From: Phycisphaerales bacterium | GTDB taxonomy: Bacteria; Planctomycetota; Phycisphaerae; Tepidisphaerales; Tepidisphaeraceae | Direction of reading: 5' to 3' | Assembly: GCA_034666045.1 (NCBI GenBank) | Contig: JAXDMN010000432.1 | Location: 1 to 51,394, forward strand | Length of the DNA stretch: 51,394 nucleotides | Shown: piece after piece, positions 19,423 to 51,021 of the stretch | Layout: each line of letters starts with the position of its first letter | Position numbering within the stretch: position 1 is the stretch's first letter | Made by a program: the position numbers and the translations under genes | Notes under the pieces: model-generated | Seen by the model: only the letters and a program-made list of their open reading frames with translations | Database searches by the model: none | Told to the model about the DNA's origin: nothing

Positions 19423-22107
19423 TTGCGAAAGCATCCGAGGATTCGTTCATCCGCGAAACAGCGGCAGGGGAACGGCAGCCGCGACCGGCAAACATCGCGC
19501 TCGCCTGCCGGTCGCTTCAACGGCAAATCCGCCAACCCGGATGCGCAGCGATCGTCGCCGACGACGAAGTCCGGCCGGCATGATGGCTTCGTCGAGGTCC
19601 GCGGTGCGCGGGAGCACAACCTGAAGAATATTGACGTCCAGATGCCCCGCGATTCTTTGGTCGTCTTCACGGGGGTTTCAGGGAGCGGAAAATCATCGCT
19701 CGCCTTCGGCACGCTCTACGCCGAGGCGCAGCGGCGATACCTGGAATCGGTGAACCCGTACGCCCGGCGACTGTTCCATCAAATGTCGCCGCCGCAGGTG
19801 GACGAAATTGACGGCCTGCCGCCGGCGGTGGCGCTCCAGCAGCAGCGGGGGACGCCGACGACGCGATCGAGCGTCGGCAGCGTCACGACGCTCTCGAACC
19901 TGCTCCGCATGCTCTATTCCCGCGCCGGCGATTACCCGCCGAGCCAGTCGATTCTGTACGCCGAGTCATTCTCGCCCAACACGCCCGAAGGCGCATGTCC
20001 GACGTGTCACGGCCTCGGTCGCATCTACGACGTGACCGAGAAATCGATGGTGCCGGACGACACGAAGACGATCCGCGATCGCGCCATCGCCGCCTGGCCG
20101 GTCGCGTGGCAGGGCCAGAACCTGCGCGACATCGTGACGACGATGGGCATCGACATCGACAAGCCGTGGCGCGAGCTGCCGAAGAAAACGCGCGATTGGC
20201 TGCTGTTCACAGATGAGCAGCCGCAGGTTCCGGTCTACGCCGGCTGGGACATGGACGAAGTCCGCCGCGCCATCAAGCGCAAGGAAGAGCCGAGCTACAT
20301 GGGGACGTTCACCGGCGCGAAGAAGCACGTCTTGCAGTCGTTCGCGACGACGCAAAGCGCGATGATGAAGCGGCGTGTGGCGCAGTTCATGGTGAGCACG
20401 GAATGTCCGGAGTGTCACGGCAAACGGCTGCGGCGCGAGGCGCAGCGGGTGAAGTTCGAGGGCCTCGACATCATGGAACTCTCCCGGCTGCCGCTCAAGC
20501 GTCTCGATGCCATCTTTCGCCCCTGCGCCGACGGCACCGGTCCGCGCTGCGCGAAGCTGGAGGCGAAGCACCCGGAGAAGGCGGAGGTCACACGCCGCAT
20601 CTCGGAAGATCTGATCGCCCGACTCTCCGTGATGCTCGACCTTGGTCTCGGGTATCTGACGCTGGACCGCAGCACGCCGACCTTGTCGCCGGGCGAGCTG
20701 CAGCGCTTGCGGCTGGCGACGCAGGTGCGATCGAATCTGTTCGGCGTGGTCTACGTGCTGGATGAGCCGTCGGCGGGGCTGCATCCGGCGGATACGGAAG
20801 CGCTGCTCGGCGCGCTTGACGGACTCAAAGCGTCGGGCAACTCGCTCTTCGTCGTCGAGCACGAGATCGATGTGATCCGTCACGCCGACTGGATCGTCGA
20901 CGTCGGCCCGGCGGCGGGGGAACACGGCGGCGAGATCCTTTACAGCGGCCCGCCGGATGGTTTGAAACGCGTCGAGCAATCGGAGACGCGCCGGTATCTC
21001 TTCGGCGATTATGTGTTGCCCGAGCGCACGCCGCGGAAACCCAAGGGGTGGCTGAAGCTCACGGGCGTCACGCGGAACAACCTGGAAAAACTCGACGTCG
21101 CATTCCCGCTCGGCGTGATGACGTCCGTCACCGGCGTTTCGGGCTCCGGCAAGTCGAGCCTCGTCAGCCAGGTGCTGCCGGAACTGGTCGCGGATCATCT
21201 CGGGCACAACCTCGAGCAGGACGAGGAAGACGTCGCCGATCTTGAGCACACGCCGGTCGAAACGCTCGGCGGGCACATCGTCAGCGGCATCGAAGAGATC
21301 AAGCGTCTCGTGCGAGTCGACCAGAAACCGATCGGCCGCACGCCGCGGTCGAACCTCGCGACGTACACCGGCCTCTTCGACTACGTGCGCAAAATCTTCG
21401 CCGACACGAAAGCCGCCCGCGCGCGAAAGTACGACGCCGGTCGGTTCTCCTTCAACGTCGCGAAGGGCCGCTGTGAAAATTGCGAGGGCGAAGGGTTCGT
21501 GATGGTCGAACTGCTGTTTTTGCCCAGCGTCTACGCGCCGTGCCCCGTTTGTCACGGCTCGCGCTACAACGCGAAGACGCTTGAGATCACGTATCGCGAT
21601 AAGAACATCGCTGAAGTGCTCGGCCTGACCGTCGACGCCGCGTATGAATTTTTCGCCGACGAGCCGCACCTGCATCGCTCGCTCGACGTCCTCCGCCAGG
21701 TCGGCCTGGGCTATCTTCGTCTCGGCCAGCCCGCGACGGAATTATCCGGCGGCGAAGCGCAGCGAATAAAACTTGCAACCGAGCTGCAACGAATGAGCCG
21801 CGGCAACACACTGTACATTCTGGACGAGCCGACGACGGGCCTGCATCCGAGCGACGTGGAAAAACTCGTCGCTCAGCTTGACGGCCTGGTCGAGGCGGGC
21901 AACACCGTGATCGTCGTCGAGCACGATATGCGCGTGGTCGCGCACAGCGACTGGACGATCGACATGGGCCCCGGCGCGGGCGATGAGGGCGGCCACATTG
22001 TGGTTTCCGCTCCACCCGTCGAGGTATCTAAATCTTCCCGTAGCCGCACCGCACCGTATTTGCGGCGGTTTTTGGAGGACGCCGGGCAACCCGTCGCGGC
22101 CGCGTAG
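19423..22107 (+). CDS. uvrA2: Class II UvrA paralogue (excinuclease ABC subunit A-like ATPase lacking the UvrB-binding domain)
   Basis: [16 protein letters not shown], two Walker A motifs ([10 protein letters not shown] twice), two ABC signatures ([18 protein letters not shown]), and Zn modules [33 protein letters not shown]. The segment between LYSRAG and CPTCHG is only about 25 aa, whereas canonical UvrA inserts its UvrB-binding domain of about 130 aa there. The only canonical in-frame start is TTG 19423, which gives a basic leader of about 55 aa. Confidence 0.9.
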
Positions 22108-22242
22108 ACGGGGTGACATCCCTGTTTGGGGAACTGTGACCGCGCCGCCACGCGCGGGTAACCTATTCGGCCGCACGCTGACCGGCGAGGGCATCTTCGG
22201 TCGGCGCGGCATCTGTCTCGGAATAATCGGAGGAGAGAGTGC

Positions 22243-24429
22243 ATGTTTGTCGAACAACTTGAATCGCGGCGGCTGATGAGTCTCGTCACGCCGCTCGCGG
22301 ATTTGCTCGTGGACGCCAACCGCGATGGCGTGATCAATGCAATCGATGATGCGGGCGAGGATATCTGGACGAACGGAATATCCGGTCGCGGCGCGGTGAT
22401 CCTTCCCAACATCGACAAGGACAACACGACCACTGGCGCACCGGATAACTGGACCGGCGGCGTGTGGAACGGCAAGCCGGTCGCGCCCAACAACGTCATC
22501 GACAACGCCGCCGACCTGCTCGACATCGGCAAGCTGCGGCTGAAAAAGCTCGGCGTCGATGACGCGTACAACTACCGCGTCACGATTCGGCTTCTCAAGC
22601 CGGCGAGCGATCCGGCGTGGTTGAAGAACACAGCCGCCGCCGACCGCGTGCGGATTTTCTTCCCGACAAAACAACTCGCCAACGGAGATGTCGTCGCGCA
22701 GGCGGGTGATATCGCGGTCATCGGTCCCGGCCAGGCCGATACAATCCGCTTCGTCGCCAACCCGGCGGCGGTGAACGAGTACAACGTGATGGATCTCGGC
22801 AGCGCGGGATGGATGGAGTTCGGCATTGAAGGTCTCAAAGCGGGCGCGCAGGTGCGCGTGCGCGTGACGGTCGAGTACATCCCGATCTTCGAGACCCAGC
22901 CGCCGACGGCGCTTGACGATGTCCCGATCGATCCGCCGCCGACGATCGACGAGATTGCCATTCGCGTCGCGCCGTTCGTGCTTCAGGACAACCGCCAGGC
23001 CGCCTCGCGCGTGTTCATTGAAAACATGAACCTCTACCCCGGCTTCGACAACGCCGCCGCGCGGGCCGTGCTGAAGCAGGCGTTCGGCACGCGCTACGCG
23101 GAGTCGAAGACCGGCGATCTCTGGCAGCAGGACGGCTACGAGATCGGCTACGCGCGCACGCCGACCGGGCAGATGCCGATCGTGCTCGAGCTGCCGCGGG
23201 CGCGCAACGGTTTGTTCGACACGGTGAACACGATGCGCACGTTCATTCGCGGCTCGCTGCTGGCGGCGGGCGTTGGCGTCAACATCGAGCTGGCGTCGCA
23301 GCTCATCGTTTCCGCCTCGTCATTCGGCGGCGACATCGAATCGCTTCCGCGTCCCGGGGCGCCCGCCGGCGCGCCGGGATTCCTCGTCGCCAGCGGCATG
23401 CCGACGTACATGAAGGATTTCTTCGCCGCCCAGGGCGTGAATCCGCTGCTGGATTTGAAGCTCGACGACTGGCTCGGCATCGCGCACGTGGACGAAGTCG
23501 TGCAACTCGCGTCCAACGGCAACAAGCTCCTCATCGCCGACCCCGACCTTGCCTGGGCGCTGGCGCTGTGGGCAACGAAAATCGACCCCAATGTCCGCAT
23601 GCTCGCGAAGATGAACAGCAACGAGGGACTGCCCGATTACACCGCCGAAGGAATCAAGGCCAGCCTCTTCCTCAACAACGCGACCTTCCGCAAACAAAAC
23701 CTGCAATTCGCGCAGAGCTCGACGCGTCTTCGCGGCTTGTACGACGCGGTGAAGAAGGCGATGAAGCTGACTGACGAGCTTTCGGCGCCTCTCAAATGGG
23801 CCAGTGCTACCGGCACGGTCTCGCTTCTGCGCGGCGGCGCCTTCACGAGCATGATCGGAAACGTCAAGCGCACGTTCCAGGTGAAGTTCCTCGACGGCGA
23901 TCGCTATCAACTGCAATATCGCGACGAAGGCGGCGCGTACTCGAAGTGGTTCGAGGGCCGCAAATCGCGCGACGAAGTCTTCACAGACGCAAAGGCATTT
24001 TTGCTCAAGGAATACTGGACCGGCACCGCCAAGACGGGCGACCGCTTCACCTTCACGACCAACCCGGCGGCGACGCTGATCAAGATGCCGGTGCTGTTCG
24101 CGACGTTCGGCCTGCTCTTCGATCCGCCCGGCTCGCCTCCTCCCGTGCAGCCGTGGCGGCTCGGCGCATTCACCACGAACCACATCAACTCCATCGTCGA
24201 CGGCCAGACCGTCGTCACCGGCAGCTCGTACGGCCCGCGCGTCAACTTCGACGGCAGCGGCGTCAAGAAGGACCTGTTCGACGCCTACGCCACCTCCGCT
24301 TTCCGCGCCGCCGGCTTCACGAAGATCTTCTTCGCCGACGCGCGCCTGTACCACGACTCCAGCGGCAGCCTGCATTGCGGGACCAACGTGATCCGCACCA
24401 TGCCGTCAGCGAAATGGTGGGAGGCGTAG
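22243..24429 (+). CDS. Protein-arginine deiminase (PAD) family homologue
   Basis: WQQDGYEIGY (compare PAD4 WMQDEMEIGY), IAHVDEVVQL (the H-x-D pair), and C-terminal SLHCGTNVIR (catalytic Cys, codon 24376-24378). A DANRDGVINAIDD Ca-type motif lies in the N-terminal domain. GGAGGAG is the RBS upstream of ATG 22243. Confidence 0.8.
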   Translation: MFVEQLESRRLMSLVTPLADLLVDANRDGVINAIDDAGEDIWTNGISGRGAVILPNIDKDNTTTGAPDNWTGGVWNGKPVAPNNVIDNAADLLDIGKLRLKKLGVDDAYNYRVTIRLLKPASDPAWLKNTAAADRVRIFFPTKQLANGDVVAQAGDIAVIGPGQADTIRFVANPAAVNEYNVMDLGSAGWMEFGIEGLKAGAQVRVRVTVEYIPIFETQPPTALDDVPIDPPPTIDEIAIRVAPFVLQDNRQAASRVFIENMNLYPGFDNAAARAVLKQAFGTRYAESKTGDLWQQDGYEIGYARTPTGQMPIVLELPRARNGLFDTVNTMRTFIRGSLLAAGVGVNIELASQLIVSASSFGGDIESLPRPGAPAGAPGFLVASGMPTYMKDFFAAQGVNPLLDLKLDDWLGIAHVDEVVQLASNGNKLLIADPDLAWALALWATKIDPNVRMLAKMNSNEGLPDYTAEGIKASLFLNNATFRKQNLQFAQSSTRLRGLYDAVKKAMKLTDELSAPLKWASATGTVSLLRGGAFTSMIGNVKRTFQVKFLDGDRYQLQYRDEGGAYSKWFEGRKSRDEVFTDAKAFLLKEYWTGTAKTGDRFTFTTNPAATLIKMPVLFATFGLLFDPPGSPPPVQPWRLGAFTTNHINSIVDGQTVVTGSSYGPRVNFDGSGVKKDLFDAYATSAFRAAGFTKIFFADARLYHDSSGSLHCGTNVIRTMPSAKWWEA

Positions 24430-24468: not shown

Positions 24469-25578
24469 GTGACAATCAGATCGGGCGGGTATCGTCCGGT
24501 CATGATCATGGAATTGAAATCGCCACCGTCATTCACCACGGCAGAAGACCGCTGGCAGGCCGTGCAGTCGCGCGACGTCGACGCCGACGGGAAGTTCGTC
24601 TACTCGGTAAAGACGACCGGCGTCTATTGCCGGCCGTCTTGTGCGGCGCGGCGGGCGCGGCGGGAGAACGTTGAGTTTCATCGGACGCCCGCGGACGCCG
24701 AGCGCGCCGGATTCCGGGCGTGCAAGCGATGCAAGCCTGCTGATCCCAATGCCGGCGACGAGCACGCGGACGCCGTTACCAGGGCGTGCAAATTGATCGA
24801 GGCCGCCGACGAGACGTGGGACGTCGACACCCTCGCCGCCGACGTCGGCATGAGCGCGTCGCACTTTCATCGAGTCTTCAAATTGCAGACCGGCTTGACG
24901 CCCAAGGCGTATGCGACCGCGCATCGGGCCCGCCGGGTCCGTGACGAGCTCGCGCACGGCGAGAGCGTCACGTCCGCCATCTACAACGCCGGCTTCAATT
25001 CCAATGGCCGCTTCTACGCGACGTCGACGAAGACGCTTGGCATGAAGCCATCGACCTTCCGCGCCGGCGGCGCCGGCGCGACGATTCGCTTTTCGGTCGG
25101 CGAGTGTTCGCTCGGCTCGATCCTCGTCGCTGTGTCTGAGATCGGCATCTGCGCGATCTCGCTTGGCGATGATCCCGAGGAACTGGTGAAGTGGCTGCAG
25201 GATCGCTTCCGCAAAGCGGAGTTCATCGGCAGCGACAAGGAGTTCGAAAAACTCGTCGGGAAGGTCATCGCCTTCGTCGAGCGCCCGGCGATCGGCCTGA
25301 AGCTGCCGCTCGACGTGCGAGGCACCGCGTTTCAGCAGCGGGTTTGGCAGAAACTGTCAGAGATCCCTTGCGGAACGACGCGCACGTACTCCGACATCGC
25401 CGCCGAGCTGGGCATGCCGAAGTCGACTCGCGCCGTCGGCCAAGCATGCGGCGCCAACCCGATCGCCGTCGCCATTCCGTGCCATCGCGTCGTTCGCACC
25501 GATGGCTCGCTCTCCGGCTATCGCTGGGGCATCGCGCGCAAGGCGAAGCTGCTGAAATCCGAACGCGGCACAAGCTGA
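24469..25578 (+). CDS. ada: Bifunctional Ada: methylphosphotriester-DNA methyltransferase/AraC-type activator + O6-methylguanine-DNA methyltransferase
   Basis: N-terminal Zn cluster CRPSC...CKRCKP, an AraC HTH (SASHFHRVFKLQTGLTPKAY), and the C-terminal active site IPCHRVV. The track start is GTG 24469. ATG 24502 or 24508 (MELKSPP...) is more consistent with Ada N-termini. Confidence 0.9.
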   Translation: MTIRSGGYRPVMIMELKSPPSFTTAEDRWQAVQSRDVDADGKFVYSVKTTGVYCRPSCAARRARRENVEFHRTPADAERAGFRACKRCKPADPNAGDEHADAVTRACKLIEAADETWDVDTLAADVGMSASHFHRVFKLQTGLTPKAYATAHRARRVRDELAHGESVTSAIYNAGFNSNGRFYATSTKTLGMKPSTFRAGGAGATIRFSVGECSLGSILVAVSEIGICAISLGDDPEELVKWLQDRFRKAEFIGSDKEFEKLVGKVIAFVERPAIGLKLPLDVRGTAFQQRVWQKLSEIPCGTTRTYSDIAAELGMPKSTRAVGQACGANPIAVAIPCHRVVRTDGSLSGYRWGIARKAKLLKSERGTS

Positions 25579-25613
25579 TAAAACGCCCGCGCCGCTCTCG
25601 CGTAAGGACCAGT

Positions 25614-28600
25614 ATGAACCGATGCTGGACGGCGATCGCGTTGTGCCTGATGTTGCTTGCCGGCGACGCGCACGCCGCCGACAAAATCCCCAAAGACGTC
25701 ACCGCGCCAGCCGGTTTCGAGATGACGCTCTTCGCCGCGCCGCCGGAGGTCAATTACCCGACCTGCCTGACTGCCACGCCGCGCGGCGAATTGTTCGTAG
25801 GCATCGACGACCAGGGTTCGCTCGGCAAGGACGCCAACCGCGGTCGCATCGTGCGCTGCGTCGATACCGACAACGACGGCGCCGCCGACGAAATAAAAAC
25901 GTTCACGAAGCTCGATCACCCGCGCGGCCTCGTCTGGGATGACGCGACCCACGCGCTCTACGTCCTCCATCCGCCAACGCTGTCGCGCTTTTATGACGAC
26001 AACAGCGACGGCGTCGCCGATCGCTCCGAGACGCTCGTCACCGCGATCGGCAATCACAAGGCGACCGCCCAGCAGGGCGCCGATCACACCACGAACGGCA
26101 TCCGCCTCGGCATCGACGGCTGGATCTACATCGCCGTCGGCGATTTCGGAATCATCGACGCGACCGGCAGCGACGGAAAACATCTGACGCTGCACGGCGG
26201 CGGGATCGTGCGCGTGCGCACGGACGGCCGCGACATCGAAATCTTCGCGACCGGCATGCGCAACATCTACGACGTCGCGATCGATCCGTTCATGAACGTT
26301 TTTTCCCGCGACAACACCAACGACGGCAACGGCTGGAACGACCGCGTCACCTTTAGTCCGCCGGGTGCGTATCACGGTTATCCGAGCCGCTTCCGGCGCT
26401 TCCCGCAGGAGATCGTCGACTGTCTCACCGACACCGGCAGCGGTTCGCCCTGCGGCGTGCTGTGCGTCGACGAGCCGGCGCTGCCCGAGCCGCACCGCCG
26501 CGCGTTTTACACCGTCGAGTGGGGGCAGAATCGCGTCGATCGCCATCCGCTCGTCGCGCGCGGCGCAGGATTCACCGCGTCGACTGACAAGGTGATGGAC
26601 GTGCCGCGCGGCATCGACATCGACGTCGATGGCGTCGGCCGGCTGTACGTCGCGTCGTGGGCGGGCGGGGGATTTAGTTACACCGATCCGAACGTCGGCT
26701 ACATCCTCCGCCTGACGCCCAAAGGTCGCGCGCCGACCACGTTTGCCAACCTCCACATTGCAAGCGACGCGGAATTGCTGAACCATCTCGCCTCGCCGAG
26801 CGGCGTGTGCCGGCAGGCGGCGCAGCGAGAAATCCTGCGACGCGGCGACAAGGCGATCTTCGCTGATGGGCTGGCGAAGCTTGCCGAGTCCGATGGTCCT
26901 CTCGCCGCACGCGTCGCCGCTGTCTTTTCGCTCAAGATGTTGCGCGGTCCGGCGGCCGATGCGGCCTTGGTCGAATTGTCGCGACGTGATGAGCTGCGCG
27001 AGTTCGCGCTGCGCGCGCTTGCCGATCGAAAGGGCGATTCGTCCGCCGTCCTGCCCGAGCTGTTCGTCGCCGCGCTGAAGGATGCGAACCCGCGCGTGCG
27101 GCTCATCGCCGCGTGGGGCCTCGGCCGGCTCGGTCACGCCAATGCGGCGGCTGCGATCGTGCCCCTGACGATCGATCCGGATCCGCTGGTTGCCCATGTG
27201 GCGGTGAATACTCTCGTCGAGCTCAATGCCGCGGACCCTTGCCTCGCGGCCATCACTGACACTGATGAAAAACGCGCCGGCGGCGCGGCCAACGCGCTGC
27301 ACCGGATGCACGATCCGGCCGTTGTCGAACGCCTCGTCGCGCGTCTCGATCAGGTCAAAAATCCCGCCGTTCGCACGCACATCTTCCGCGCCCTCGCACG
27401 GCTCCACTCGCGTGAAAAGGATTGGGACGGCGAATGGTGGCAGACGCGCCCCGACACAACCGGCCCGTACTTTCAACCGGTCGCCTGGACCGCGACGCCG
27501 CGCATCGCCGAGGTGATACGGCGCGCGCTCGCGACTGAATCGCCGCAGACGGTTCGCTCGCTCGTTGTCGACTGTGCCGCCAACCGCGTTGACCTGCAGG
27601 AAGTGAACGAGCGGCTCCTCGCGGTCGATCCGACGGATTCGGCGCTCTGCCTCGCGCTGCTCGATACGCTGGTCCGCCGGCAGCAGTTGTCTGACGGGCA
27701 GATCGCGGCGGCGAAAACAATCATGAACGCCGAAGCGGCCGAGCCGGCGGTGCGCGTGAAGACCATCCAGGTGCTGAGCTGGGAATGGGCGAGCGATCCC
27801 GCGATCGCAGCGGTGGTCGATGCCCTCGGCAACATCACCGCAACCGAATCGCCGCCCGCCGAACTCGCCGCCGCGATGGAATCGTTCATTCAGAATGCGC
27901 AGCTCGCCGGGCGTATCCCGCTGCTGGCGCGTTTGGCGAGCAGCGGATCGAAAGGGCAGCGCGAGATCGCACTGACGGCGCTGGTGACCATCGCGGAAAG
28001 CAAGTTGACCGAGCCTGAGCCACGCCGTGCCGCGGAATCCGCAATCGCCGCCGCATGGCAGGATCCCGCCGCCGTCGAGCCGCTGCTTGCCGCGATCGGC
28101 CGCACGAAGGCGAAGCGCTACCGCGACGACGTCCGCGTCCGCATGCGCGACAACGACGCCGCAATCGCTCGCGCCGCCGTCGCCGTCGCGCGACGCCTCG
28201 GCATCTCTGAAACCGCGACGACGACGCAGGCGAGTGAGACCATCGCGTCAATCGGTTACGAAAAATCGCTCGCCACCGTCCTGAAAACCCCCGGCGACGC
28301 GACGCGCGGCAAGGAGCTCTTCGCCAGCCAGGGCTGCGTCGCCTGTCACACCGTCTCGCCCGCGGACCTGCCCAAGGGTCCGTTCCTCGGCGGAATCGCG
28401 ACGCGCTACAGCCGCAGCGAGATCTTCGAGTCACTCGTCAAGCCCAGCGCCAAGATCGCCCAGGGTTTTGAGACGCAATGGTTCAAGATGAAGGACGATG
28501 TCCTCGAAGGTTTCGTCACGCGCGACGCCGCCGATGAGATCGAGCTGCGCGACGCGAACGGCAAAACCATCGTGCTGAAAAAAGCCCAAGTGAAAGCCCG

Positions 28601-28706
28601 CGGCACGCGCGAGAAGTCGGTCATGCCGGAAGGCCTTCTCTCCAACCTCCCGCCTGCCGACGCGGCCAACCTCGTCGCTTATCTCGAATCGCTCAAGGCG
28701 AAGTAG
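25614..28706 (+). CDS. PVC-type heme-binding protein: membrane-bound-dehydrogenase-like beta-propeller + HEAT repeats + C-terminal cytochrome c domain
   Basis: Start at ATG 25614 with signal peptide MNRCWTAIALCLMLLAGDAHAADK. HEAT-like repeats are present (DANPRVRLIAAWGLGRLG, DPDPLVAHVAVNTL). The C-terminal part is GCVACHTV...SVMPEGL. The track ORF's 141 upstream aa overlap ada and are rejected. Confidence 0.8.
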   Translation: MNRCWTAIALCLMLLAGDAHAADKIPKDVTAPAGFEMTLFAAPPEVNYPTCLTATPRGELFVGIDDQGSLGKDANRGRIVRCVDTDNDGAADEIKTFTKLDHPRGLVWDDATHALYVLHPPTLSRFYDDNSDGVADRSETLVTAIGNHKATAQQGADHTTNGIRLGIDGWIYIAVGDFGIIDATGSDGKHLTLHGGGIVRVRTDGRDIEIFATGMRNIYDVAIDPFMNVFSRDNTNDGNGWNDRVTFSPPGAYHGYPSRFRRFPQEIVDCLTDTGSGSPCGVLCVDEPALPEPHRRAFYTVEWGQNRVDRHPLVARGAGFTASTDKVMDVPRGIDIDVDGVGRLYVASWAGGGFSYTDPNVGYILRLTPKGRAPTTFANLHIASDAELLNHLASPSGVCRQAAQREILRRGDKAIFADGLAKLAESDGPLAARVAAVFSLKMLRGPAADAALVELSRRDELREFALRALADRKGDSSAVLPELFVAALKDANPRVRLIAAWGLGRLGHANAAAAIVPLTIDPDPLVAHVAVNTLVELNAADPCLAAITDTDEKRAGGAANALHRMHDPAVVERLVARLDQVKNPAVRTHIFRALARLHSREKDWDGEWWQTRPDTTGPYFQPVAWTATPRIAEVIRRALATESPQTVRSLVVDCAANRVDLQEVNERLLAVDPTDSALCLALLDTLVRRQQLSDGQIAAAKTIMNAEAAEPAVRVKTIQVLSWEWASDPAIAAVVDALGNITATESPPAELAAAMESFIQNAQLAGRIPLLARLASSGSKGQREIALTALVTIAESKLTEPEPRRAAESAIAAAWQDPAAVEPLLAAIGRTKAKRYRDDVRVRMRDNDAAIARAAVAVARRLGISETATTTQASETIASIGYEKSLATVLKTPGDATRGKELFASQGCVACHTVSPADLPKGPFLGGIATRYSRSEIFESLVKPSAKIAQGFETQWFKMKDDVLEGFVTRDAADEIELRDANGKTIVLKKAQVKARGTREKSVMPEGLLSNLPPADAANLVAYLESLKAK

Positions 28707-31947: not shown

Positions 31948-34900
31948 TTACAGCGGCAGCGCGGTGTTGCGCTGATCCTCCGGGCCGCCTTGCGTGTCGC
32001 GCTTGGCCTTGGCGTTCGGGCCTTGCGGGTCGCGCGGGCCGCCGTGGTTGGCCTGCCACTGCGGGTCCTTCGCGGTGAAGAGTCCGAGCTCGCCGTCGGG
32101 CTCGAGGCGCGTCGCGTCCGCGCCGCTCTCGAGGCCGAGCGCCAGGAGGAACTCGACCATGCCGGGCGAAATCTTGCGCGCCACGGTCGGCTCGCCGAAC
32201 GGGCTGTAGGGGACGACGTAGGTGTTGAACTCGCCGCCCCAGTCGAACATGCGCTCGCCGCCGGTGTTGGCGATCATGACGTCGAGCCCGTCGCCGCCGT
32301 AGACCCAGTCGGCGTCGGCATAGAGCGGGGCGTCCGGCTGGCTGTTCAGGCCACCGGCGGTGTCCTTGTTGTCGTCGGCGTCGATCATGTCGTCGCCCGC
32401 GCCGCCGAAGAGACGGTCGGTGCCGGTGCCGCCGACGATCCAGTCGTGACCGGTATCACCGAAGATGCGGTCCTTGCCGTCGTCGATCTTCACGCCGCCC
32501 ACGCTGGCGTCGAAGTTGAGCAGGAAGTTGGCGACCTTCACGAGCGGCTTGTTCGCGTCGTACCCGGCGAGCTTGCGCGTCGCTGGGTCGTACACGATTG
32601 GCGTCGTGTTGGTGACCGGGGCATCGGTGTAGAACGTCGCCAAAGCTTCGGCGCCGCTGACGGCGTCGTTGCCTGCGCCGGCATGCAGGAAGTCGTCGCC
32701 CAACCCGCCGTACACGACGTCGTTGCCGCCGATCTCGTACGCGAGGAGTTGGACGTCCTTCTGAATCCGCCCGGTGATGTTGATCCAGACGGCCGTCCAC
32801 GGGCCGGGCATCGCGAGGTTGCTCATGACGCTGGCGGTGTTCACACCGTGCAGCGTTTCGGTCAGCCCGTTGCGGCTGGTGAAGATGAGCCCATCGTCGC
32901 CGACGACGCCGTCTTCGCCACTGCCGGCGTAGATGCGGTCGTGTCCGATGCCGCCGAAGATGTCGTCGTCCTGGCCTTCGCCGAAGAGGACGTCGTTGCC
33001 GACGGTGCCGTACACCGAATCGTCACCCGATTCGCCGTGGATCAGGTCAGCCGCCCCGATATCCGTTGCGGCGTTGCCGCCGTACGTGTAGTCGAGGTGC
33101 TGGACTGACCGCGGGATCAGCTTGAGCGGCCCGTAGTTGTCGTAGGTGAACGTGCGGGCGTTCCCGGCGGCATCGACCAGGCGGTAGATGTTGCCATTGT
33201 CGCCGATGATGAAGTCGGCGTCGCGCGAGTGGGCGGTGTTGCCGGTGTCGCCGAGGTGGTTGCGTGCGAGATCGGTGCCTGCGCCGCCGAAGATGATGTC
33301 GGCGCCGTCGCCGCGCAGAGCCGGCGTCGTCAGGCTGAAGAGGTTCGACGATCCGCCGATCAAATCGTCCTGACCGAGGTTGCCGAAGATCAGGTCACTG
33401 CCATCATTGCCTTCGATGTAGTCGTCGCCGTCAGTGGCGGCTTCGACCGATGCCTGCGTCGCGGAGACGGTGATATCGATCGAGCCATCGCCCTGCACGG
33501 TGTCGTTGCCGAGCTGGCCGAAGATCTCGTCGTCGCCCGCGCCGCCGGCGATGTAATCGTTGCCGAAGTTCGTGAGCGTTTGGTCGAGCGTGATCGTCCA
33601 ATCCGCCCAGGTGGGCAGGCCGCCCGGGATGAGGTTCGACGGGGCGCCGACATTCGGCTGACCCGCCGCGTTGTAGAGCGTCGCGCCAAGGGCGGTGCGG
33701 AAGCGACCCTTGATCGCGTCGGCCGAGCCGACGTTGTTGACGAGGCGGACGTTGTCGCCGAAGACGAGGTCCTTCTCGCTGCCGCCGTCGAGGGCGTCAG
33801 CGCCGGTGCCGCCGATGACGACGTCGTCGCCCTCGTTGCCGTAGATGCGATCGTTGCCGCCGTTGGCGCGGTCGGTCGTCTCGATCGAGTCGATCGTGAC
33901 GCCGTCTGACTTGTAGATGACGTCGGCGCGGTCGCCGATGAGCACATCGCCGCCGGCTTGGCCGTTGACGGTGTCGTTGCCAAGGCCGGCGATCACCACA
34001 TCGCCGTCAGCGCCGCCGCTGATCGAATCGTTGCCGCCGACGCCCGCGCCGGTCTCGGTGATCTTGACGACTTTGGTCGGGCCGTCGGTGCCGGTGATCG
34101 GGGTGAAATCGACGCGTGCGCTGTCGCCGGCGACGATGTCTTCGCCAGCACCGGCATCGATCACGTCGTTGGCGGCGCCGCCGATGAGGAGGTCCTTGCC
34201 GCCGCCGCCGTTGATCACATCGTTGCCGCCGATCGCGTTATCGATCGACCAGACGATGCGCGGCCCGCGGTAGGTGCCGTCGCCTTGGTCTTCCGGCAGC
34301 GCCGAGATGCGGTATGCCGAATTCTCGTCCACTTCGAGTTGGCCGGTCACCGGCATCGTCGTCCAGTTGCTGTCGACGGTGATCGTCGTCGCGGTGTTCG
34401 CGATGATCCGGCGGAACTGCACATGTCCGTCCGGCATGATGACCTGCACCATCAGGCCGACCAGGCCGCCGTACTCCGTGGTGAAGTTGGCGGTCGGATC
34501 GGTGATCGTGTTCGCGGTCGCGGAGACGACCGGCGGATTGACCGGGTTGAGCGGGGTCGAGTGCCCGAGGCGCGTGACGATCTTGCCCTGGGCATCGACG
34601 AAGTCGACGCGCCCGAAATCGCCGAAGAGCGAATCCTGACCGTCGCCGCCGGTGATGCTGTCGTTGCCTTCTTCACCGAACGCCACGATCCCGAGCGTCG
34701 AGCCGGTGGCATTGATGGTGTCATTGCCGGCCTGCCCGCGAATCGCGAGATCGCCGTCCTGTGCGGCGTCGATCTTCGCATTGACGGTGTCGTTGCCCGC
34801 GCCCAGGTTGAGCATCGTGAGCGTGTAGAAATCGCCGCTGCGCTTGGTGGTGTGGCCCTCGGCGTTGGTGGTGTAGTCGACGTCGAGCGTGTCGTTGCCG

Positions 34901-37900
34901 TTGCCGAGGTTGACCTGCAGGACTTCCATGTCGCCGTAGGTGATTCCGCCCGGCTGCACGCCGCTGCCGATGACGACGTTGGGGCCCATGCCCAGGCCGA
35001 GGATTCGGCCGTGACGATCGAAACCGTCGAAGCGGAACTCGCTGCGGTTCGTCGGTGCGCCCGATCCGCCGCTGAGCTTCGTGAGCGTCAGCAGCTTGAC
35101 GGTTGAATCGGTCGTGTTGGCGACCGATTCCACCTGCCACTTGCGACCCTTACCGGGGCCGATCGTGATCTCGAGGACCTTGCCGACCAGATTGTTCAAA
35201 TCATTGTTCGTCAGGCCCAGCGCCTGAAGATCTGTGGTCTCGACAGTCATCGTTTCGGTCGTGCCGGCCGACGCGGTGAAGCCGAGGACGTTGCCGTCGC
35301 TCGACGTCATCGTGCCGGTGTCGTTGGCGACGCTGTCCTGGTCGAAGACGGTGGTGTAGTCGACCTGCACGCGCTCATCGGCGAAGAAGTTGACGCTGAG
35401 CGAGGTGATGGCGTACTCGGTCGCGGTCGTCGGCGCCGTGACGTTCGGCTGGCCCGGATCGACGGCCGTCGGGTTCTGCAACCGCAGCTGCGTCAACCCG
35501 CCGCCGAGATCCACGATCTCGGTGATCAGCCAGAAGCGATCGTAAATGTCGCGCGGGCGGGTGGCGTCGAGAACGACGTCGGTGCCCGGGCCCTTGGTCA
35601 GCTCGATCGTCTTGCCGAGCAGCTTGGTGATGGTGTCGACGTCGACGTCCGCCAGGTGATCGAGCAGGTCCTGCGTATTGACGGTCATCGTCTCGATTGC
35701 GCCGCCGCCGGCGCCCGGCGTGAAGGCAACGACGTTGCCGTGCGATGCGCGGACGTTCAACTCGCCCGGGAGCATCAGCGGAGCGGGCAGGCTGAGCGAG
35801 CCCGCGCCGGCCGCGCCTTCAATGATGAGCGGGCCGCGGATCTTGTTGACGGTGTTGAGCTCCGGCGCGAAGACCTGCGTCTCGCTGCCGTCCTGGAAGT
35901 TGTCGTCGATCGCTTCGACGGTGACTTCCTGCGGAACGTTCCAGTTCGCATCGGTGAAGGTGATCGTCGTGGCGGACGCGCCGTTGACGGTGACCTGTTC
36001 CTTGAACTCGGCGTCGCCTTCCAGCGTCGTGCGCGTCTTGATCGCGTCGACGTTGATGGTGACGGTCGTGCCGGCCGCCGGCGCCTTCGACAGCACGACG
36101 GTGTACTTGTCGGTGTAGCCGCCTTCGAGCACGTCGGTCGATCCGTCGCTCTGCGTGACGATGACCATCGCGGCGTCGTTGTCGTAGATGTCGACCGAGG
36201 TGTCCTTGACCAGGATGTTGTCGTACCCGCGTTCGATGTATTTGTAGGCGGCCTGCACGGTGCCGCTGACGGCGACGGCGTTGCCGTTCTTGATGAACGT
36301 CACCGTGTTGCCGGTGATTGTATAACGCAGCTCCGGCGTGATTTCGCCGTCGGCGAGCGGTTGCACGATGCCGGCGTCGAGCTTGATCGTGATTGGTTGA
36401 GTCAGGTCGGGCTTGTGCTCGAGGAAGAGGAACGAGGTCGCCTTCTCCGGCACGATCGGCTGCACGCCCGGCAGGAGCAGGTCGGCGTCGACGGTGGCGA
36501 GCGCGCGGGTCTTGTGCGTGTCGACGTCGCTGCTGCTGACCGTCGCGGTGATGAAGTCGGTGTGGAACCCTTCGATCACTGCATCGTTGGTCGCGGTGAT
36601 GGTGACCGGCTGCGGCGTGTTCCAGTTGCTGGTCGTGAAGAGCAGCGACGTATCCGACAGCCCGATCTGGCCATTCGTCGATGCGAGCGTCACGATGACG
36701 TCGCTCGTCGGCTGGCGGGTGAGCACGACCTTGATCTGGTCGGTGAAGCCGTTCTCCAGCACGGTGGTGTTGTTGTTGACGGACGAGATGACCACGCCGG
36801 CGCGGTCGTCATCGTTGATCCCCACCTTCACGCTGAGCAACTGCACGCCGGCGAAATCGTCGTCGGTGCTGTTCTCGGTGATGTGGTTGATGAAGGTAAA
36901 GCGCTGGCCCTCGCTGGCGTCGTCATGCGCGGCGCGGAACTTGACCTCGAGCCCGTTCTTCCAGTCGTCGTTGCTGCTGGTGAACAGCAGGCCGGGGTGA
37001 TTCTGCGCCGTGACCCAGCTCGCGCTGGACGGATCCCAGAACTCCAGGTCCTTGTACTTCTTCGCCTGGTCTTCCGGCGGCAGCCCGGAATCGACGAGCT
37101 TGACGAGCACGTGCTTGCCCGGCTGCGGCTTGCGCGAAAGGCGGATCTTGTAGGTGTCGAACTGGACCCCGATGCCGCCGCTGAGCGCATCCTCGGTGAC
37201 GCTCGACGCGCCGCCGCTTTCGCTGACGATGAGGAACGGTTCCTCGTTGTCGGCGATGTTGGCGGAGACTCCCTCCGCCTTGACGTTCTGCCACGCGGGA
37301 TCGGTGCTCTCGACGTTGTTGAGGATGATGCCGCTGTGGCCCTTGAAGTCGTCGCTGATGACGGGGATCGGCGCATTGCCGGGCGCACCGCCGACGAAGA
37401 AGCTGTCGCTGCCGAGACCGCCGTCGATTTCGGTGACGACATTGAGGCCGGTGGAGAGGACGAAGAAGCGGTCGTTGCCCTCGGCGCCGTCGGCGACGAG
37501 TTTTTCAATGTTGACGTAGCTGATGTTGAGCCCGGCGCCGTACACGCCGGTGTCGGTGACGACGAAGTCGTCGCTGAACTCGGTGCCGACGACGCGAATG
37601 GTATCGAATCCGTCGCCGCCGTCGATGCCGACCGGCGCATTGAGCGCGTATCGGATCGTGTCGGCGCCGCCGTCGCCCTTCATGTCGGTGCGGGCGCGTT
37701 CGCTGTCGGTCGATCCGGCCAGCGCGAAGGCGCGAACGGTGAACAGATCGTCGCCGTCGCCGCCGTTGAGGTTCACCACCGCCGTATTGTGGAAGACGGT
37801 CATCTCGTCGTTGCCGTCGCCGCCGTTGATGACAGTGGGGCGGCTGACGCCGGCGGAAAGGAATCCGCGCGTGATCGCGACGGTCGCGAACACGTCGTCC

Positions 37901-49900: not shown

Positions 49901-51021
49901 GTATTGAGCGAAACGTCGACCTGGTTCGGCGCCGGCCTCGCGCCGATGAGGTTGTCCTGCACCTCTTGGATCATCGCGGCATAAATCGGGTGGTTGCCGT
50001 TGGCAGCGGTGGCACTGCTGACCGCAAGCTCGATCTTGGTCGAGGCGGTGACGTTCGCGCCGGCCGTGCCCAGCGCCGTGTTGAGCTGCGTCCATGTCGC
50101 ACCGGCGTCGATGCTCATGAAGATGCCGATGCCCGGCATGGCGGCGTAGAAGCGGTTCGGATCCGTCGGGTCACCCTTGATGTCCGTGACGGTCCCGCCG
50201 GGGAGGCCGGTGTTCTCATCCGCCTCGTCCTTTGTGCCGTCGCTGTCGTTATCGAGTCCGTCGTTGTGATTGCCGGAAATCTTCTTGAAGCCGCCGAACC
50301 CGCCGTCCGTGCTGCGAACCAGGCCGCCGCTGACGCGCGCCGCCGGCGCGCCGGTGAACTGCGGCGTTGCATCACTGCCGATCAGCACCACGCGCCCGCT
50401 GCCTTGCGCGACCGTCGTCGGCACAATCGCGTGAATCGTGCGGTTGCGCTCGAAGATGCTCGGGAAGATCTTCCACGTCTCACCGCCGTCGGAGCTCTTG
50501 AGCAAACCGATCGTCTTCCCGCCCAGCCCGGAGCTGCTCACCTTGCCGGTTCCGGCCCAGACGACATTGTTGTTGACCGGGTCGAGCGCGATCGCGCTGA
50601 TGGCGGTCGAGGGGAACTGATCGGTCTTGGGCGTCCAGGTGGTGCCGCCGTTGGTCGTCTTCCAGATCCCGCCGCCGACCGTTCCGACCCAAATGGTGCC
50701 GGCTTGTGCGACGTCCGGATCGGCGGCGACGGAATGGATCGCGCCGGTGACCGGCTGGTTGGCGATGCCGCGGACCTGTCCGCTGGTCATCGGGCCGGGA
50801 CCTTGCTCCGCCCAGTTGGGAATGCCGGTCACGTTGGTCGCGAGCATCACGCGGTTCTCGAGCTGCTCGAGGCGCAGGCGCGGCGCAATGAAGGCAGCGG
50901 CGCTGCGGGGGCGCGAGGCGGCGGCGCAGCTCGGGTGCTCTTCCATGAACTCGTGCGCACGCATGCGGTTCAACACGAACCGGTACTGGCTGACCAACCA
51001 CTTGTATGCGCTAGATTCCAT
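31948..51021 (-). CDS. Giant (6357 aa) secreted/surface repeat protein. Order: LEPR-XLL-like N-terminal motif, BNR/Asp-box propeller region, uncharacterised repeat core of about 2700 aa, RTX-type nonapeptide blocks, Calx-beta-like domains
   Basis: A single uninterrupted 19,074-nt ORF. SD AAGAGGAG lies 7 nt upstream of ATG 51021. The domain evidence is listed under the sub-features below. Confidence 0.9.
   Translation of the reverse strand: [6357 protein letters not shown]
32230..34810 (-). repeat. Giant protein sub-region: C-terminal interrupted RTX-type nonapeptide blocks
   Basis: [10 protein letters not shown]..., [154 protein letters not shown]. Confidence 0.8.
35880..37290 (-). other. 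Giant protein sub-region: three or more Calx-beta-like beta-sandwich domains (approximate bounds, tentative)
   Basis: Recurring ...[11 protein letters not shown]...[18 protein letters not shown]...[19 protein letters not shown] and ...[11 protein letters not shown]...[18 protein letters not shown]...[15 protein letters not shown] patterns. Confidence 0.5.
38765..39735 (-). repeat. Giant protein sub-region: RTX / hemolysin-type Ca-binding nonapeptide block 1
   Basis: Runs from [10 protein letters not shown] to [10 protein letters not shown]. It holds more than 25 consecutive GGxGxDxxx-type repeats, for example [39 protein letters not shown] and [19 protein letters not shown]. Confidence 0.85.
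48130..50830 (-). other. Giant protein sub-region: BNR/Asp-box (SxDxGxTW) beta-propeller-like region (approximate bounds)
   Basis: Asp-box motifs [47 protein letters not shown] is a sialidase/Vps10/Ycf48-like blade signature. Confidence 0.6.

What the first reader, a model, noticed from the sequence alone, without database searches (positions are those of the whole stretch)
22243..24429. Bacterial protein-arginine deiminase (PAD) homologue with an intact catalytic tetrad and a large insertion
All four PAD catalytic positions can be read.
- Asp in WQQD(297)GYEIGY
- His415 and Asp417 in IAHVDEV
- Cys712 in SLHCGTNV (codon 24376-24378)

True PAD-family enzymes (distinct from Porphyromonas PPAD, arginine deiminase and agmatine deiminase) are mainly animal enzymes with sparse bacterial representatives. 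The His-to-Cys spacing here is 297 residues, against about 175 in human PAD4 as I recall it. This implies an insertion of about 100-120 aa, roughly residues 515-610 (nt 23785-24072): VSLLRGGAFTSMIGNVKRTFQVKFLDGDRYQLQYRDEGGAYSKWFEG.... The N-terminus has a dockerin/EF-hand-like DANRDGVINAIDD motif and starts with a LEPR-XLL-like MFVEQLESRRLMS string instead of a Sec signal peptide. The substrate is unknown: protein arginine, free arginine derivatives or a cell-wall component.
Basis: partly seen in the sequence, partly recalled or inferred. Interest (0 to 1): 0.7.

Follow-up and report, generated by a model that had tools for sequence, protein, structure and literature searches.

The report
Planctomycete arginine deiminase with extra domain
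This gene encodes a bacterial relative of the human enzymes that convert protein arginine to citrulline; it looks catalytically intact and probably exported, and it carries an extra 99-residue domain of unknown role that marks a small, mostly planctomycete branch of an already known and widespread bacterial family.

Summary
ORF 22243-24429 (+) encodes a 728-aa protein of the PAD family (Pfam PF03068, E=1.3e-30). Its AlphaFold model (pLDDT 93) matches human PAD4/PAD2 (Foldseek E~2e-36). D297, H415, D417 and C712 align with PAD4 D350/H471/D473/C645. The first three are invariant across the 62 aligned relatives, and C712 is absent only from one truncated fragment.

It is the known two-domain bacterial type (PAD_M + PAD_C, no PAD_N). 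Ligands of Ca sites 1, 3, 5 and 6 are kept; sites 2 and 4 are lost.

The insertion is real: 99 residues (513-611), plus a 13-residue loop expansion (620-639). It folds confidently as a small beta domain with no convincing relative in Pfam or PDB, and it is as conserved as the catalytic core. Only 93 of 1.84 billion representative proteins match its profile. Carriers form one clade (92-95% bootstrap), mostly Planctomycetota.

The N-terminal ExLExRxL motif is the planctomycete cell-surface export motif. Distant clade members carry Sec signal peptides instead.

Bacterial PADs are not sparse: at least 435 species genomes encode relatives. NCBI already annotates close homologues as PAD family proteins. 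This is a new variant of a known kind, of moderate-to-low interest.

The parts
22229..22235 (+). Shine-Dalgarno-like GGAGGAG, 7 nt upstream of the ATG
   Evidence: Read directly from the sequence.
22243..24429 (+). Complete gene for the 728-aa two-domain PAD-family protein
   Evidence: ORF list and translation. Pfam PAD E=1.3e-30. AF2 model pLDDT 93.4, pTM 0.90. Foldseek match to human PAD4 E=2.3e-36.
22252..22281 (+). N-terminal EQLESRRLMS motif (residues 4-13), the planctomycete cell-surface/export motif ExLExRxLL; no Sec-type hydrophobic stretch
   Evidence: PF07595 Planc_extracel at residues 1-12, E=0.042 and below the cut-off. Nine of 62 relatives match, best E=9.5e-5. 47 of 62 have LE.R.[LMFIV] in the first 60 residues, mostly starting at residues 6-10. 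Maximum hydropathy at the N-terminus is 0.73. The motif's role is taken from PMC8567305.
22300..22857 (+). PAD_M (Ig-like middle) domain, residues about 20-205, with Ca-site residues D24/N26/D28 (Ca6-like) and N56/D58/D60/D68/D91/D94 (Ca3-5 cluster)
   Evidence: PF08527 scores 27.6 bits (cut-off 24.8) when the N-terminal part is scanned alone, and 57 of 62 relatives match. Aligned to PAD4 N153-D165 and to PAD2 DVDADRDGVVE. D24, N56, D68, D91 and D94 are invariant and D58/D60 are kept in at least 90% of relatives. The D91/D94 mapping to PAD4 D176/D179 was made by eye.
22858..22947 (+). Proline-rich variable linker, residues 206-235
   Evidence: pLDDT 65-73. Column conservation 0.39.
22948..23778 (+). 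Catalytic PAD_C domain, first part (residues 236-512), with D297 (23131-23133), R319, R321, E366, H415 (23485-23487) and D417 (23491-23493)
   Evidence: Pfam PAD residues 236-492. Alignment to PAD4. Invariance in the family.
23779..24075 (+). 99-residue inserted beta domain (residues 513-611), placed between PAD4 positions about 563 and 564
   Evidence: Absent from the Myxococcota relative P0075, which reads GLTD|AEVIEIP. Modelled alone: pLDDT 91, six strands. No Pfam, PDB-sequence or internal homology. Only weak Foldseek matches. Conservation 0.64, equal to the core. Its profile finds 93 proteins in 1.84 billion.
24076..24426 (+). Catalytic PAD_C domain, last part (residues 612-728), with the variable 20-residue loop 620-639 (24100-24159) and C712 (24376-24378)
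   Evidence: Alignment to PAD4 580-660. The codon was read directly. Loop conservation 0.33.

Best explanation
The gene encodes a catalytically competent, calcium-binding peptidyl-arginine deiminase of the two-domain bacterial type (PAD_M + PAD_C). It is probably exported to the cell surface or medium.

Proposed chemistry, by homology with PAD4: D297 and D417 hold the substrate guanidinium. C712 attacks it to form a covalent S-alkylthiouronium intermediate and release ammonia. H415 activates the water that then yields citrulline. Ca sites 1, 3, 5 and 6 are retained, so calcium probably orders the active site, but not through the animal Ca2/Ca4 switch.

The 99-residue insert is an autonomous beta domain attached before the third strand of propeller module 4. 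By topology this is the face away from the active site, directly after the helix that carries PAD4's dimer-contact residues. I read it as a docking, oligomerisation or stabilising module specific to this clade, not as a lid. The smaller variable loop 620-639 lies on the active-site face and is the better candidate for tuning substrate choice.

Shown here: family membership, fold, conserved catalytic and Ca ligands, reality and clade restriction of the insert. Inferred: export, protein arginine as the substrate, position and role of the insert.
For: - **Family and fold.** PF03068 scores 107 bits. phmmer to PAD4/PAD2 gives E~2e-17. The AF2 model has pLDDT 93.4. Foldseek's listed top matches are all human PADs, E down to 2.3e-36, TM 0.60/0.70.
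- **Catalytic residues.** They align with D350/H471/D473/C645 and are conserved as described in the observation check. R372 and R374 equivalents (R319, R321) are present.
- **Ca ligands.** Q296/E300/E366 match site 1, and N56/D58/D60/D68 match site 3. Site 2 (G298/L317/A320) and the D388 switch (G343) are lost. This is the pattern Cummings et al. describe for two-domain PADIs.
- **Export.** The N-terminal ExLExRxL motif is present and is reported as a planctomycete cell-surface export signal. Distant members of the same insert-bearing clade carry classical Sec signal peptides or are fused to PATR, fn3 and DUF7453 domains. The catalytic Cys is the only cysteine in the protein.
- **Insert.** It has a confident autonomous fold, is conserved like the core, and its carriers are monophyletic at 92-95% bootstrap on columns that exclude it.
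- **Topology.** In the DSSP string, catalytic residues follow the third strands of modules 1, 3 and 5, whereas the insert precedes the third strand of module 4. The PAD4 interface residues R544/D547 lie on the helix just before the insertion point.
Against: - No biochemical data exist for any member of this clade.
- The export motif is below the Pfam and NCBIfam cut-offs in this protein, and its export function is itself only proposed in the literature.
- The R374 equivalent, which in PAD4 binds the substrate peptide backbone (from my memory of the PAD4 structure papers), varies within the clade (R/T/K/Y/A). Peptide recognition may therefore differ.
- I had no access to model coordinates. The position of the insert relative to the active site rests on topology only and could be wrong for a 99-residue domain that can fold back.
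- There is no conserved gene neighbourhood to suggest a substrate.
Confidence: 0.6

Rival explanations
1. It is a cytoplasmic peptide-tailoring PAD, like the Streptomyces enzyme that installs citrulline in the lasso peptide citrulassin. It would act on a distally encoded ribosomal peptide or on the cell's own proteins.
For: The only bacterial PF03068 PAD with a demonstrated in vivo function is of this kind. Like this gene, such PADs sit in unrelated, non-conserved neighbourhoods. The protein has no Sec or Tat signal, and the N-terminal motif is sub-threshold.
Against: The ExLExRxL motif is conserved at the extreme N-terminus across the clade, and Sec signal peptides take its place in distant members. 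Clade members are fused to PATR and fn3 surface-protein modules. The clade is separate from the Streptomyces/Myxococcota group in the tree. I did not search the window for RiPP genes; the immediate neighbours are a UvrA-like protein, Ada and a DUF7133-HEAT-cytochrome c protein.
Confidence: 0.17
2. It is a hydrolase for a non-protein guanidino substrate, such as free arginine, agmatine-like amines or an arginine-bearing polymer. The insert and the expanded loop would reshape the entrance so that proteins are excluded. A role in nitrogen scavenging is possible.
For: The pentein tetrad is shared by enzymes that act on small guanidino compounds. The R374 equivalent varies within the clade. PAD4 H640 is replaced by S707 (my mapping from the C-terminal alignments). 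Loop 620-639 on the active-site face is expanded.
Against: Profile and fold place it firmly in PF03068 together with a PAD_M domain, not in the ADI, AgDI, DDAH or amidinotransferase families. W347, R372 and, in this protein, R374 equivalents are kept. By topology the large insert lies away from the cleft.
Confidence: 0.15
3. It is a non-catalytic PAD-fold protein, comparable to animal PAD6, used as a scaffold or binding module.
For: One clade member (Pirellulales L010) has Tyr in place of the catalytic Cys, so loss of catalysis does occur in this clade.
Against: In this protein, and in every full-length aligned relative, the whole tetrad and the Ca1 ligands are intact. PAD6 is only a weak match, E=0.014.
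Confidence: 0.03

Closest known systems
Human PAD4 / PAD2 (PF03068; PDB 1WDA, 4N2C)
   Same: Same catalytic domain fold (Foldseek E~1e-36, TM 0.60/0.70). Same D-H-D-C tetrad, with W347, R372 and R374 equivalents. It has a PAD_M domain with Ca3/Ca5 ligands, Ca1 ligands and a PAD2-like Ca6 motif.
   Different: About 18% identity. No PAD_N domain. The Ca2 site and the D388 (Ca4) switch are lost. A 99-residue domain is inserted at PAD4 position about 563, and the loop at 572-579 is expanded by 13 residues. It has an N-terminal planctomycete export motif. The animal head-to-tail dimer uses PAD_N, which is absent here.
Two-domain bacterial/fungal PADIs (Cummings et al. 2022, PMC8826395), including the Streptomyces citrulassin PAD (Harris et al. 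2020)
   Same: Same PAD_M + PAD_C architecture without PAD_N. Sites 1 and 3 are retained and sites 2 and 4 are lost. The gene stands alone in variable genomic contexts.
   Different: It forms a separate clade in the NJ tree. It carries the 99-residue insert, which is absent from the Streptomyces and Myxococcota loci tested. It lacks the triple-His linker motif reported for actinobacterial and fungal sequences (sequence). It has a planctomycete export motif. Planctomycetota are not mentioned in either paper.
Three-domain cyanobacterial PADIs (donor lineage of animal PADIs)
   Same: Bacterial PF03068 enzymes with the same tetrad.
   Different: In my tree the Aulosira sequence groups with Branchiostoma and human PAD4 (94-95% bootstrap) and away from this clade. 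Per Cummings et al., the late-diverging cyanobacterial PADIs have PAD_N and the Ca2/Ca4 sites.
Porphyromonas PPAD (PF04371) and other pentein enzymes (ADI, AgDI, DDAH, AGAT)
   Same: Distantly related pentein catalytic fold and Cys/His/Asp chemistry.
   Different: No profile match to those families. The only Pfam families matched are PAD and PAD_M, and every listed top Foldseek match is an animal PAD.

Membership tests
PAD family (Pfam PF03068, protein-arginine deiminase catalytic domain) | Profile match above the curated cut-off | tested here: met
   107.1 bits against a cut-off of 25, E=1.3e-30. All 62 relatives match.
PAD family (Pfam PF03068, protein-arginine deiminase catalytic domain) | Catalytic tetrad Asp350/His471/Asp473/Cys645 (PAD4 numbering) | tested here: met
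   D297/H415/D417/C712 align to the tetrad. They are conserved in every full-length relative aligned. The Cys codon TGC was read at 24376-24378.
PAD family (Pfam PF03068, protein-arginine deiminase catalytic domain) | Five-module alpha/beta-propeller (pentein) fold superposable on solved PADs | tested here: met
   AF2 pLDDT 93.4. Foldseek to PAD4, PAD2, PAD1 and PAD3 gives E of 2e-36 to 1e-29, TMq 0.60 and TMt 0.70. Residue-level superposition of the tetrad was not possible because no coordinates were returned.
PAD family (Pfam PF03068, protein-arginine deiminase catalytic domain) | Ca-dependent conversion of peptidyl-arginine to citrulline | not testable with these tools
   Requires an enzyme assay.
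Two-domain bacterial PADI type (PAD_M + PAD_C) | PAD_M (PF08527) domain present | tested here: met
   24.2 bits on the whole protein, just under the 24.8 cut-off. 27.6 bits when the N-terminal 234 residues are scanned alone. 57 of 62 relatives match.
Two-domain bacterial PADI type (PAD_M + PAD_C) | PAD_N (PF08526) absent | tested here: met
   No PAD_N hit at E<=1. PAD_M starts about 20 residues after the start codon, and the ORF cannot extend upstream.
Two-domain bacterial PADI type (PAD_M + PAD_C) | Ca sites 1 and 3 kept; sites 2 and 4 (D388/D389 switch) lost | tested here: met
   Site 1 is Q296/E300/E366. Site 3 is N56/D58/D60/D68, plus D91/D94 mapped by eye. Site 2 reads G298/L317/A320, and D388 corresponds to G343 or a gap.
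Three-domain (animal/late cyanobacterial) PADI type | PAD_N domain and Ca2/Ca4 switch; phylogenetic grouping with animal PADs | tested here: not met
   No PAD_N. Ca2 and Ca4 ligands are lost. The tree places Aulosira, Branchiostoma and HsPAD4 together (94-95%), apart from this clade.
Planctomycete cell-surface/export motif proteins (Pfam PF07595 Planc_extracel; NCBIfam NF012209 LEPR-XLL) | N-terminal ExLExRxLL(A) motif matching the profile above its cut-off | tested here: inconclusive
   PF07595 scores 14 bits, E=0.042, against a cut-off of 25.5. NF012209 gives no hit. The motif EQLESRRLMS fits the published consensus, and 47 of 62 relatives carry it.
Porphyromonas-type PAD / agmatine deiminase (PF04371) | Profile match to PF04371 | tested here: not met
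   The only Pfam families reported at E<=1 are PAD and PAD_M.

The most novel reading that the evidence does not exclude
The insert-bearing clade could be a Planctomycetota-centred lineage of secreted or surface-anchored citrullinating enzymes. The 99-residue domain would dock the enzyme to a specific extracellular partner, for example the giant LEPR-XLL/RTX surface proteins encoded in the same genomes, or to foreign proteins and cationic peptides. That would be the first extracellular PF03068-type citrullination system in free-living bacteria, and it would carry a new targeting domain.
Probability: 0.25. Interest if true: 0.55.

Novelty: new variant of a known kind. Interest (0 to 1): 0.33.

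Why it matters
Citrullination is studied almost entirely in animals. For bacterial PF03068 PADs, the only in vivo function I found in the papers searched is tailoring of a Streptomyces lasso peptide.

A conserved, apparently exported PAD lineage in soil and freshwater Planctomycetota raises a new possibility. It has its own inserted domain and lacks the animal Ca2/Ca4 switch. Together these features suggest that arginine deimination is also used outside the cell by free-living bacteria, for surface remodelling, nitrogen scavenging or neutralising cationic peptides.

It would also give a natural test case for how PAD activity is regulated without PAD_N-mediated dimerisation. A cultured organism, Humisphaera borealis, carries an orthologue, so the question can be tested directly.

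The gene is nevertheless a member of a recognised family and is already annotated as such, so the advance is incremental.

Tried and rejected
- **Identity of the insert.** A Pfam scan of the insert at E<=10 found nothing. A PDB sequence-profile search gave only chance-level hits, E>0.2. Foldseek of the isolated insert model gave only borderline matches (Xanthomonas FlgL and Wzc chains, E~1e-3, TMq 0.45-0.53), which I do not take as homology. hhalign of the insert against PAD_M and both halves of the catalytic domain gave probability <=4%, so it is not an internal duplication.
- **Weak repeat hits.** The multi-stretch hits of the insert profile in proteins full of Ig, PKD or fn3 repeats cover only one hairpin (profile positions about 33-69). 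I treat them as spurious.
- **NCBIfam.** No model matches the protein. NF012209 LEPR-XLL does not match its N-terminus, even at E<=10.
- **Gene neighbourhood.** Flanks differ in the window (UvrA-like, Ada), in H. borealis (PolA, CoaE, Rho) and in a Tepidisphaeraceae MAG (PIN, peptidase M3), so context gives no clue to the substrate.
- **First tree.** The tree turned out to rest only on residues 236-505, because hmmalign left the C-terminal part of insert-less sequences unaligned. I rebuilt it from separate N- and C-core profiles (298 columns) and got the same result.
- **MAFFT subset alignment.** It failed for the same C-terminal region and was used only for the N-terminal blocks.
- **Promoter and terminator scan.** It found no more sites than expected from shuffled sequence.
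- **Coordinates.** No model coordinates were available, so distances from the insert to the active site could not be measured.
Full report
**1. The observation**

The window holds a 2,187-nt ORF at 22243-24429 (+) encoding 728 residues. The ATG at 22243 is the first start codon after an in-frame stop 32 codons upstream. A GGAGGAG sequence lies 7 nt before it, so the N-terminus as read is very likely the true one.

G+C content (0.63) matches the flanks, so nothing suggests a recent insertion.

**2. Family and fold**

Pfam reports only two families: PAD (PF03068, 107 bits against a cut-off of 25, E=1.3e-30) and PAD_M (PF08527). PAD_M scores 24.2 bits on the whole protein, just below its 24.8 cut-off. 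It scores 27.6 bits when the N-terminal 234 residues are scanned alone. NCBIfam has no model for the protein.

phmmer against PDB sequences finds human PAD4, PAD2, PAD1 and PAD3 (E from 2e-17 to about 8e-13). The match falls in three collinear stretches: residues 18-68, 236-438/511 and 641-727.

An AlphaFold2 model built on 62 relatives is confident (mean pLDDT 93.4, pTM 0.90). Only residues 1-14 are disordered. Foldseek against the PDB returns only human PADs among the 50 matches listed (E=2.3e-36, TMq 0.60, TMt 0.70).

That condition is not met.

**3. Catalytic and calcium-binding residues**

Mapping to PAD4:

| PAD4 | This protein | Role |
|---|---|---|
| W347 | W294 | substrate channel |
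| Q349 | Q296 | Ca1 |
| D350 | D297 | catalytic |
| E353 | E300 | Ca1 |
| R372 | R319 | substrate region |
| R374 | R321 | substrate region |
| E411 | E366 | Ca1 |
| H471 | H415 | catalytic |
| D473 | D417 | catalytic |
| H644 | H711 | |
| C645 | C712 | catalytic |

- D297, H415 and D417 are invariant in 62 aligned relatives. C712 is missing only from one truncated sequence.
- The Ca2 ligands E351, S370 and N373 are G298, L317 and A320.
- The Ca4 'switch' D388 corresponds to G343 or a gap.
- PAD4 N153/D155/D157/D165 align with N56/D58/D60/D68.
- D91 and D94, both invariant, correspond by eye to D176 and D179.
That motif holds the Ca6 residues D125 and E131 named by Cummings et al.; the numbering is my mapping. 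Five relatives also give weak EF-hand_5 hits.

This is the pattern Cummings et al. (PMC8826395) describe for two-domain bacterial and fungal PADIs. PAD_N is absent and PAD_M is divergent. Sites 1 and 3 are kept, and sites 5 and 6 are probably kept. Sites 2 and 4 are confined to the cyanobacterial/animal clade.

**4. The insertion**

The Myxococcota relative P0075 (608 aa) reads GLTD|AEVIEIP where this protein has LTDE...[99 residues]...ATLIKMP. Branchiostoma, Aulosira and Streptomyces sequences end the preceding helix in the same way.

- The insert is residues 513-611 (nt 23779-24075), between PAD4 positions about 563 and 564.
- A second, smaller expansion of 13 residues occupies the loop at 620-639.
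- With about 12 residues of small indels, this accounts for the 123-residue excess in His-to-Cys spacing (297 against 174).

Modelled alone from 31 sequences, the insert folds confidently (pLDDT 91) as six beta strands and one short helix.

It has no Pfam match at E<=10 and no PDB sequence-profile match better than E=0.2. It shows no similarity to PAD_M or to either half of the catalytic core (hhalign probability <=4%). Foldseek gives only borderline matches to Xanthomonas FlgL and Wzc chains (E~1e-3, TMq about 0.5). I do not regard these as homology.

The insert is as conserved as the catalytic core: mean column conservation is 0.64, against 0.64 and 0.63 for the two core halves. The 620-639 loop (0.33) and the 206-235 linker (0.39) are variable. 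The insert is therefore under selection comparable to the enzyme core.

**5. Distribution of the insert**

A profile of the insert was searched against 1.84 billion representative proteins. It finds 93 proteins at E<=1e-3 and 57 at E<=1e-10.

- In most of the stronger hits the match lies roughly 100-215 residues from the C-terminus, as in this protein.
- All four long hits I scanned (1,109-1,808 aa) are PADs (PF03068 and PAD_M). Three are fused to PATR repeats, fn3 or DUF7453.
- One of them is from a Pirellulales MAG.
- The remaining weak multi-copy hits are repeat proteins, three of five scanned being rich in Ig, PKD or fn3 domains. They match one hairpin only and are probably spurious.

They come from Streptomyces, Myxococcota, cyanobacteria, Dehalococcoidia, Acidobacteriota, Lentisphaerales, Proteobacteria and Paenibacillus.

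Among the best 80 loci, the insert HMM is positive in seven. These are one Phycisphaerales, four Tepidisphaeraceae, one Pirellulales and one Anaerolineales MAG.

Neighbour-joining trees on catalytic-core columns that exclude the insert recover the insert-bearing sequences as one clade. Bootstrap support is 95% on 258 columns and 92% on 298 columns covering both halves. The same trees recover the published Aulosira + Branchiostoma + human PAD4 grouping at 94-95%. The insert therefore looks like a single acquisition in a lineage centred on Planctomycetota.

The closest relatives (53-97% identity) are from Humisphaera and Tepidisphaeraceae. They include the cultured Humisphaera borealis, and NCBI names them 'protein-arginine deiminase family protein'.

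**6. The N-terminus and localisation**

- There is no Sec-type hydrophobic segment. Maximum Kyte-Doolittle(19) hydropathy over the first 30 windows is 0.73, and the global maximum of 1.62 lies over the strand at residues 612-616.
- Residues 4-13 (EQLESRRLMS) fit the consensus RRLxxExLExRxLLA. Studholme et al. proposed this as a planctomycete N-terminal export signal. Mahajan et al. used the equivalent motif to list 52 such proteins in T. immobilis. Twenty were detected by proteomics, eight of them only in the SDS-soluble fraction (PMC8567305).
- The Pfam model PF07595 matches this protein only weakly (E=0.042). It matches nine relatives, with a best E of 9.5e-5.
- 47 of 62 relatives carry LE.R.[LMFIV], mostly starting at residues 6-10, and several more carry close variants.
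- More distant insert-bearing PADs have N-termini that look like classical Sec signal peptides: P0082, P0094, P0099, P0113, P0119, P0128 and P0074. Others are embedded in PATR- or fn3-containing surface proteins.
- The insert-less Myxococcota relative P0075 has a lipobox-like LLAGC.
- The catalytic Cys712 is the only cysteine in the protein.
- The 6,357-aa RTX-repeat ORF in the same window carries the same kind of motif. NF012209 LEPR-XLL matches it at E=0.016.

Together these make an extracytoplasmic location the most likely reading, though it is not proven.

**7. Where the insert sits and what it may do (inference)**

In the DSSP string of the model the catalytic domain parses into five beta-beta-alpha-beta modules. 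D297, E366, H415/D417 and C712 all lie in loops that follow the third strand of modules 1, 2, 3 and 5.

The 99-residue insert precedes the third strand of module 4 (strand 612-616). The 620-639 loop follows that strand. By this topology the large insert hangs from the face opposite the active site, and the small variable loop lies on the active-site face.

The insert also begins four to five residues after the helix equivalent to PAD4 540-559. That helix carries R544 and D547. These are two of the head-to-tail dimer-interface residues (R8, Y237, D273, E281, Y435, R544, D547) studied by Liu et al. (PMC3120853).

I therefore favour a docking, oligomerisation or stabilising role over an active-site lid. 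Without coordinates this remains untested.

**8. Context**

The neighbours are a UvrA-like ATPase upstream, an Ada methyltransferase/regulator downstream, and a DUF7133-HEAT-cytochrome c protein after that. The orthologues in H. borealis and a Tepidisphaeraceae MAG have entirely different neighbours. This matches the 'highly diverse' contexts that Harris et al. reported for 837 bacterial PF03068 PADs.

**9. Comparison with what is known, and verdict**

The protein is a bona fide member of the PAD family and of its two-domain bacterial type. It works, in all likelihood, like PAD4 at the chemical step.

It differs from every described PAD I could find in three ways:
- the conserved 99-residue inserted domain;
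- the expanded active-site-face loop;
- the planctomycete export motif.

Neither Cummings et al. nor Harris et al. mention Planctomycetota, and a full-text search for Planctomycetes together with peptidylarginine deiminase found no paper.

I rate it a new variant of a known kind, with interest 0.33. The identification is solid, the structural novelty is genuine but modest, and function is testable in a cultured relative.

Noticed in passing
window 31948-51021 (-): Giant 6,357-aa ORF with RTX calcium-binding nonapeptide repeats (PF00353, E=4.6e-29 and 5.5e-49 in its two halves). An LRLEQLENRVMLA motif lies about 50 residues from its first ATG and weakly matches NCBIfam NF012209 LEPR-XLL (E=0.016). 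It shares the type of N-terminal motif found on the PAD gene, which suggests a common export route.
   Followed up: partly
L010:2-2098 (uncultured Pirellulales MAG CAYSLN010000153.1): An insert-bearing PAD homologue reads HYATN where the family has HCGTN. The catalytic Cys is replaced by Tyr, so it is a probable pseudo-enzyme within the clade.
   Followed up: no
L009:5812-8082 (uncultured Anaerolineales MAG CAYQDH010000031.1): A Chloroflexota MAG carries an insert-bearing PAD (33% identity, insert HMM E=6e-22) that falls inside the otherwise planctomycete clade. This is either horizontal transfer or a binning error.
   Followed up: no
window 24376-24378 (C712) and whole ORF 22243-24429: The catalytic cysteine is the only cysteine in the 728-residue protein.
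   Followed up: yes
proteins P0085, P0096, P0106, P0110, P0114, P0129 (from the representative search): Proteins of 1,392-3,068 aa match the insert profile near their C-terminus. The three I scanned (P0085, P0106, P0110) are confirmed PADs preceded by PATR autotransporter-type repeats, fn3 or DUF7453. PAD catalytic units are therefore built into giant surface proteins in some Planctomycetota.
   Followed up: partly
protein P0075 and relatives (Myxococcota): A large set of about 600-aa insert-less two-domain PADs in Myxococcota: 218 clusters at E<=1e-10. P0075 has a lipoprotein-like N-terminus (LLAGC). One member (P0179) is annotated as a fusion with TolC.
   Followed up: no
window 19423-22107 (+) and 24469-25578 (+): The PAD gene lies between two DNA-repair genes: a UvrA-like ATPase (UvrA DNA-binding domain and ABC domains) and a full-length Ada (Zn-binding, AraC HTH and O6-methylguanine methyltransferase domains). 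This arrangement is not conserved in relatives.
   Followed up: yes
window 25191-28706 (+): A large ORF with DUF7133, HEAT repeats and a C-terminal cytochrome c domain. The true start is probably internal, at the signal-peptide-like MNRCWTAIALCLMLLAGDAHA.
   Followed up: partly
L016 and L051 (Phycisphaerales / Phycisphaerae MAGs): PAD homologues in stop-to-stop ORFs of 861 and 893 codons. They are negative for the insert HMM and form their own group in the first tree (79% bootstrap). They may carry different extra sequence.
   Followed up: no
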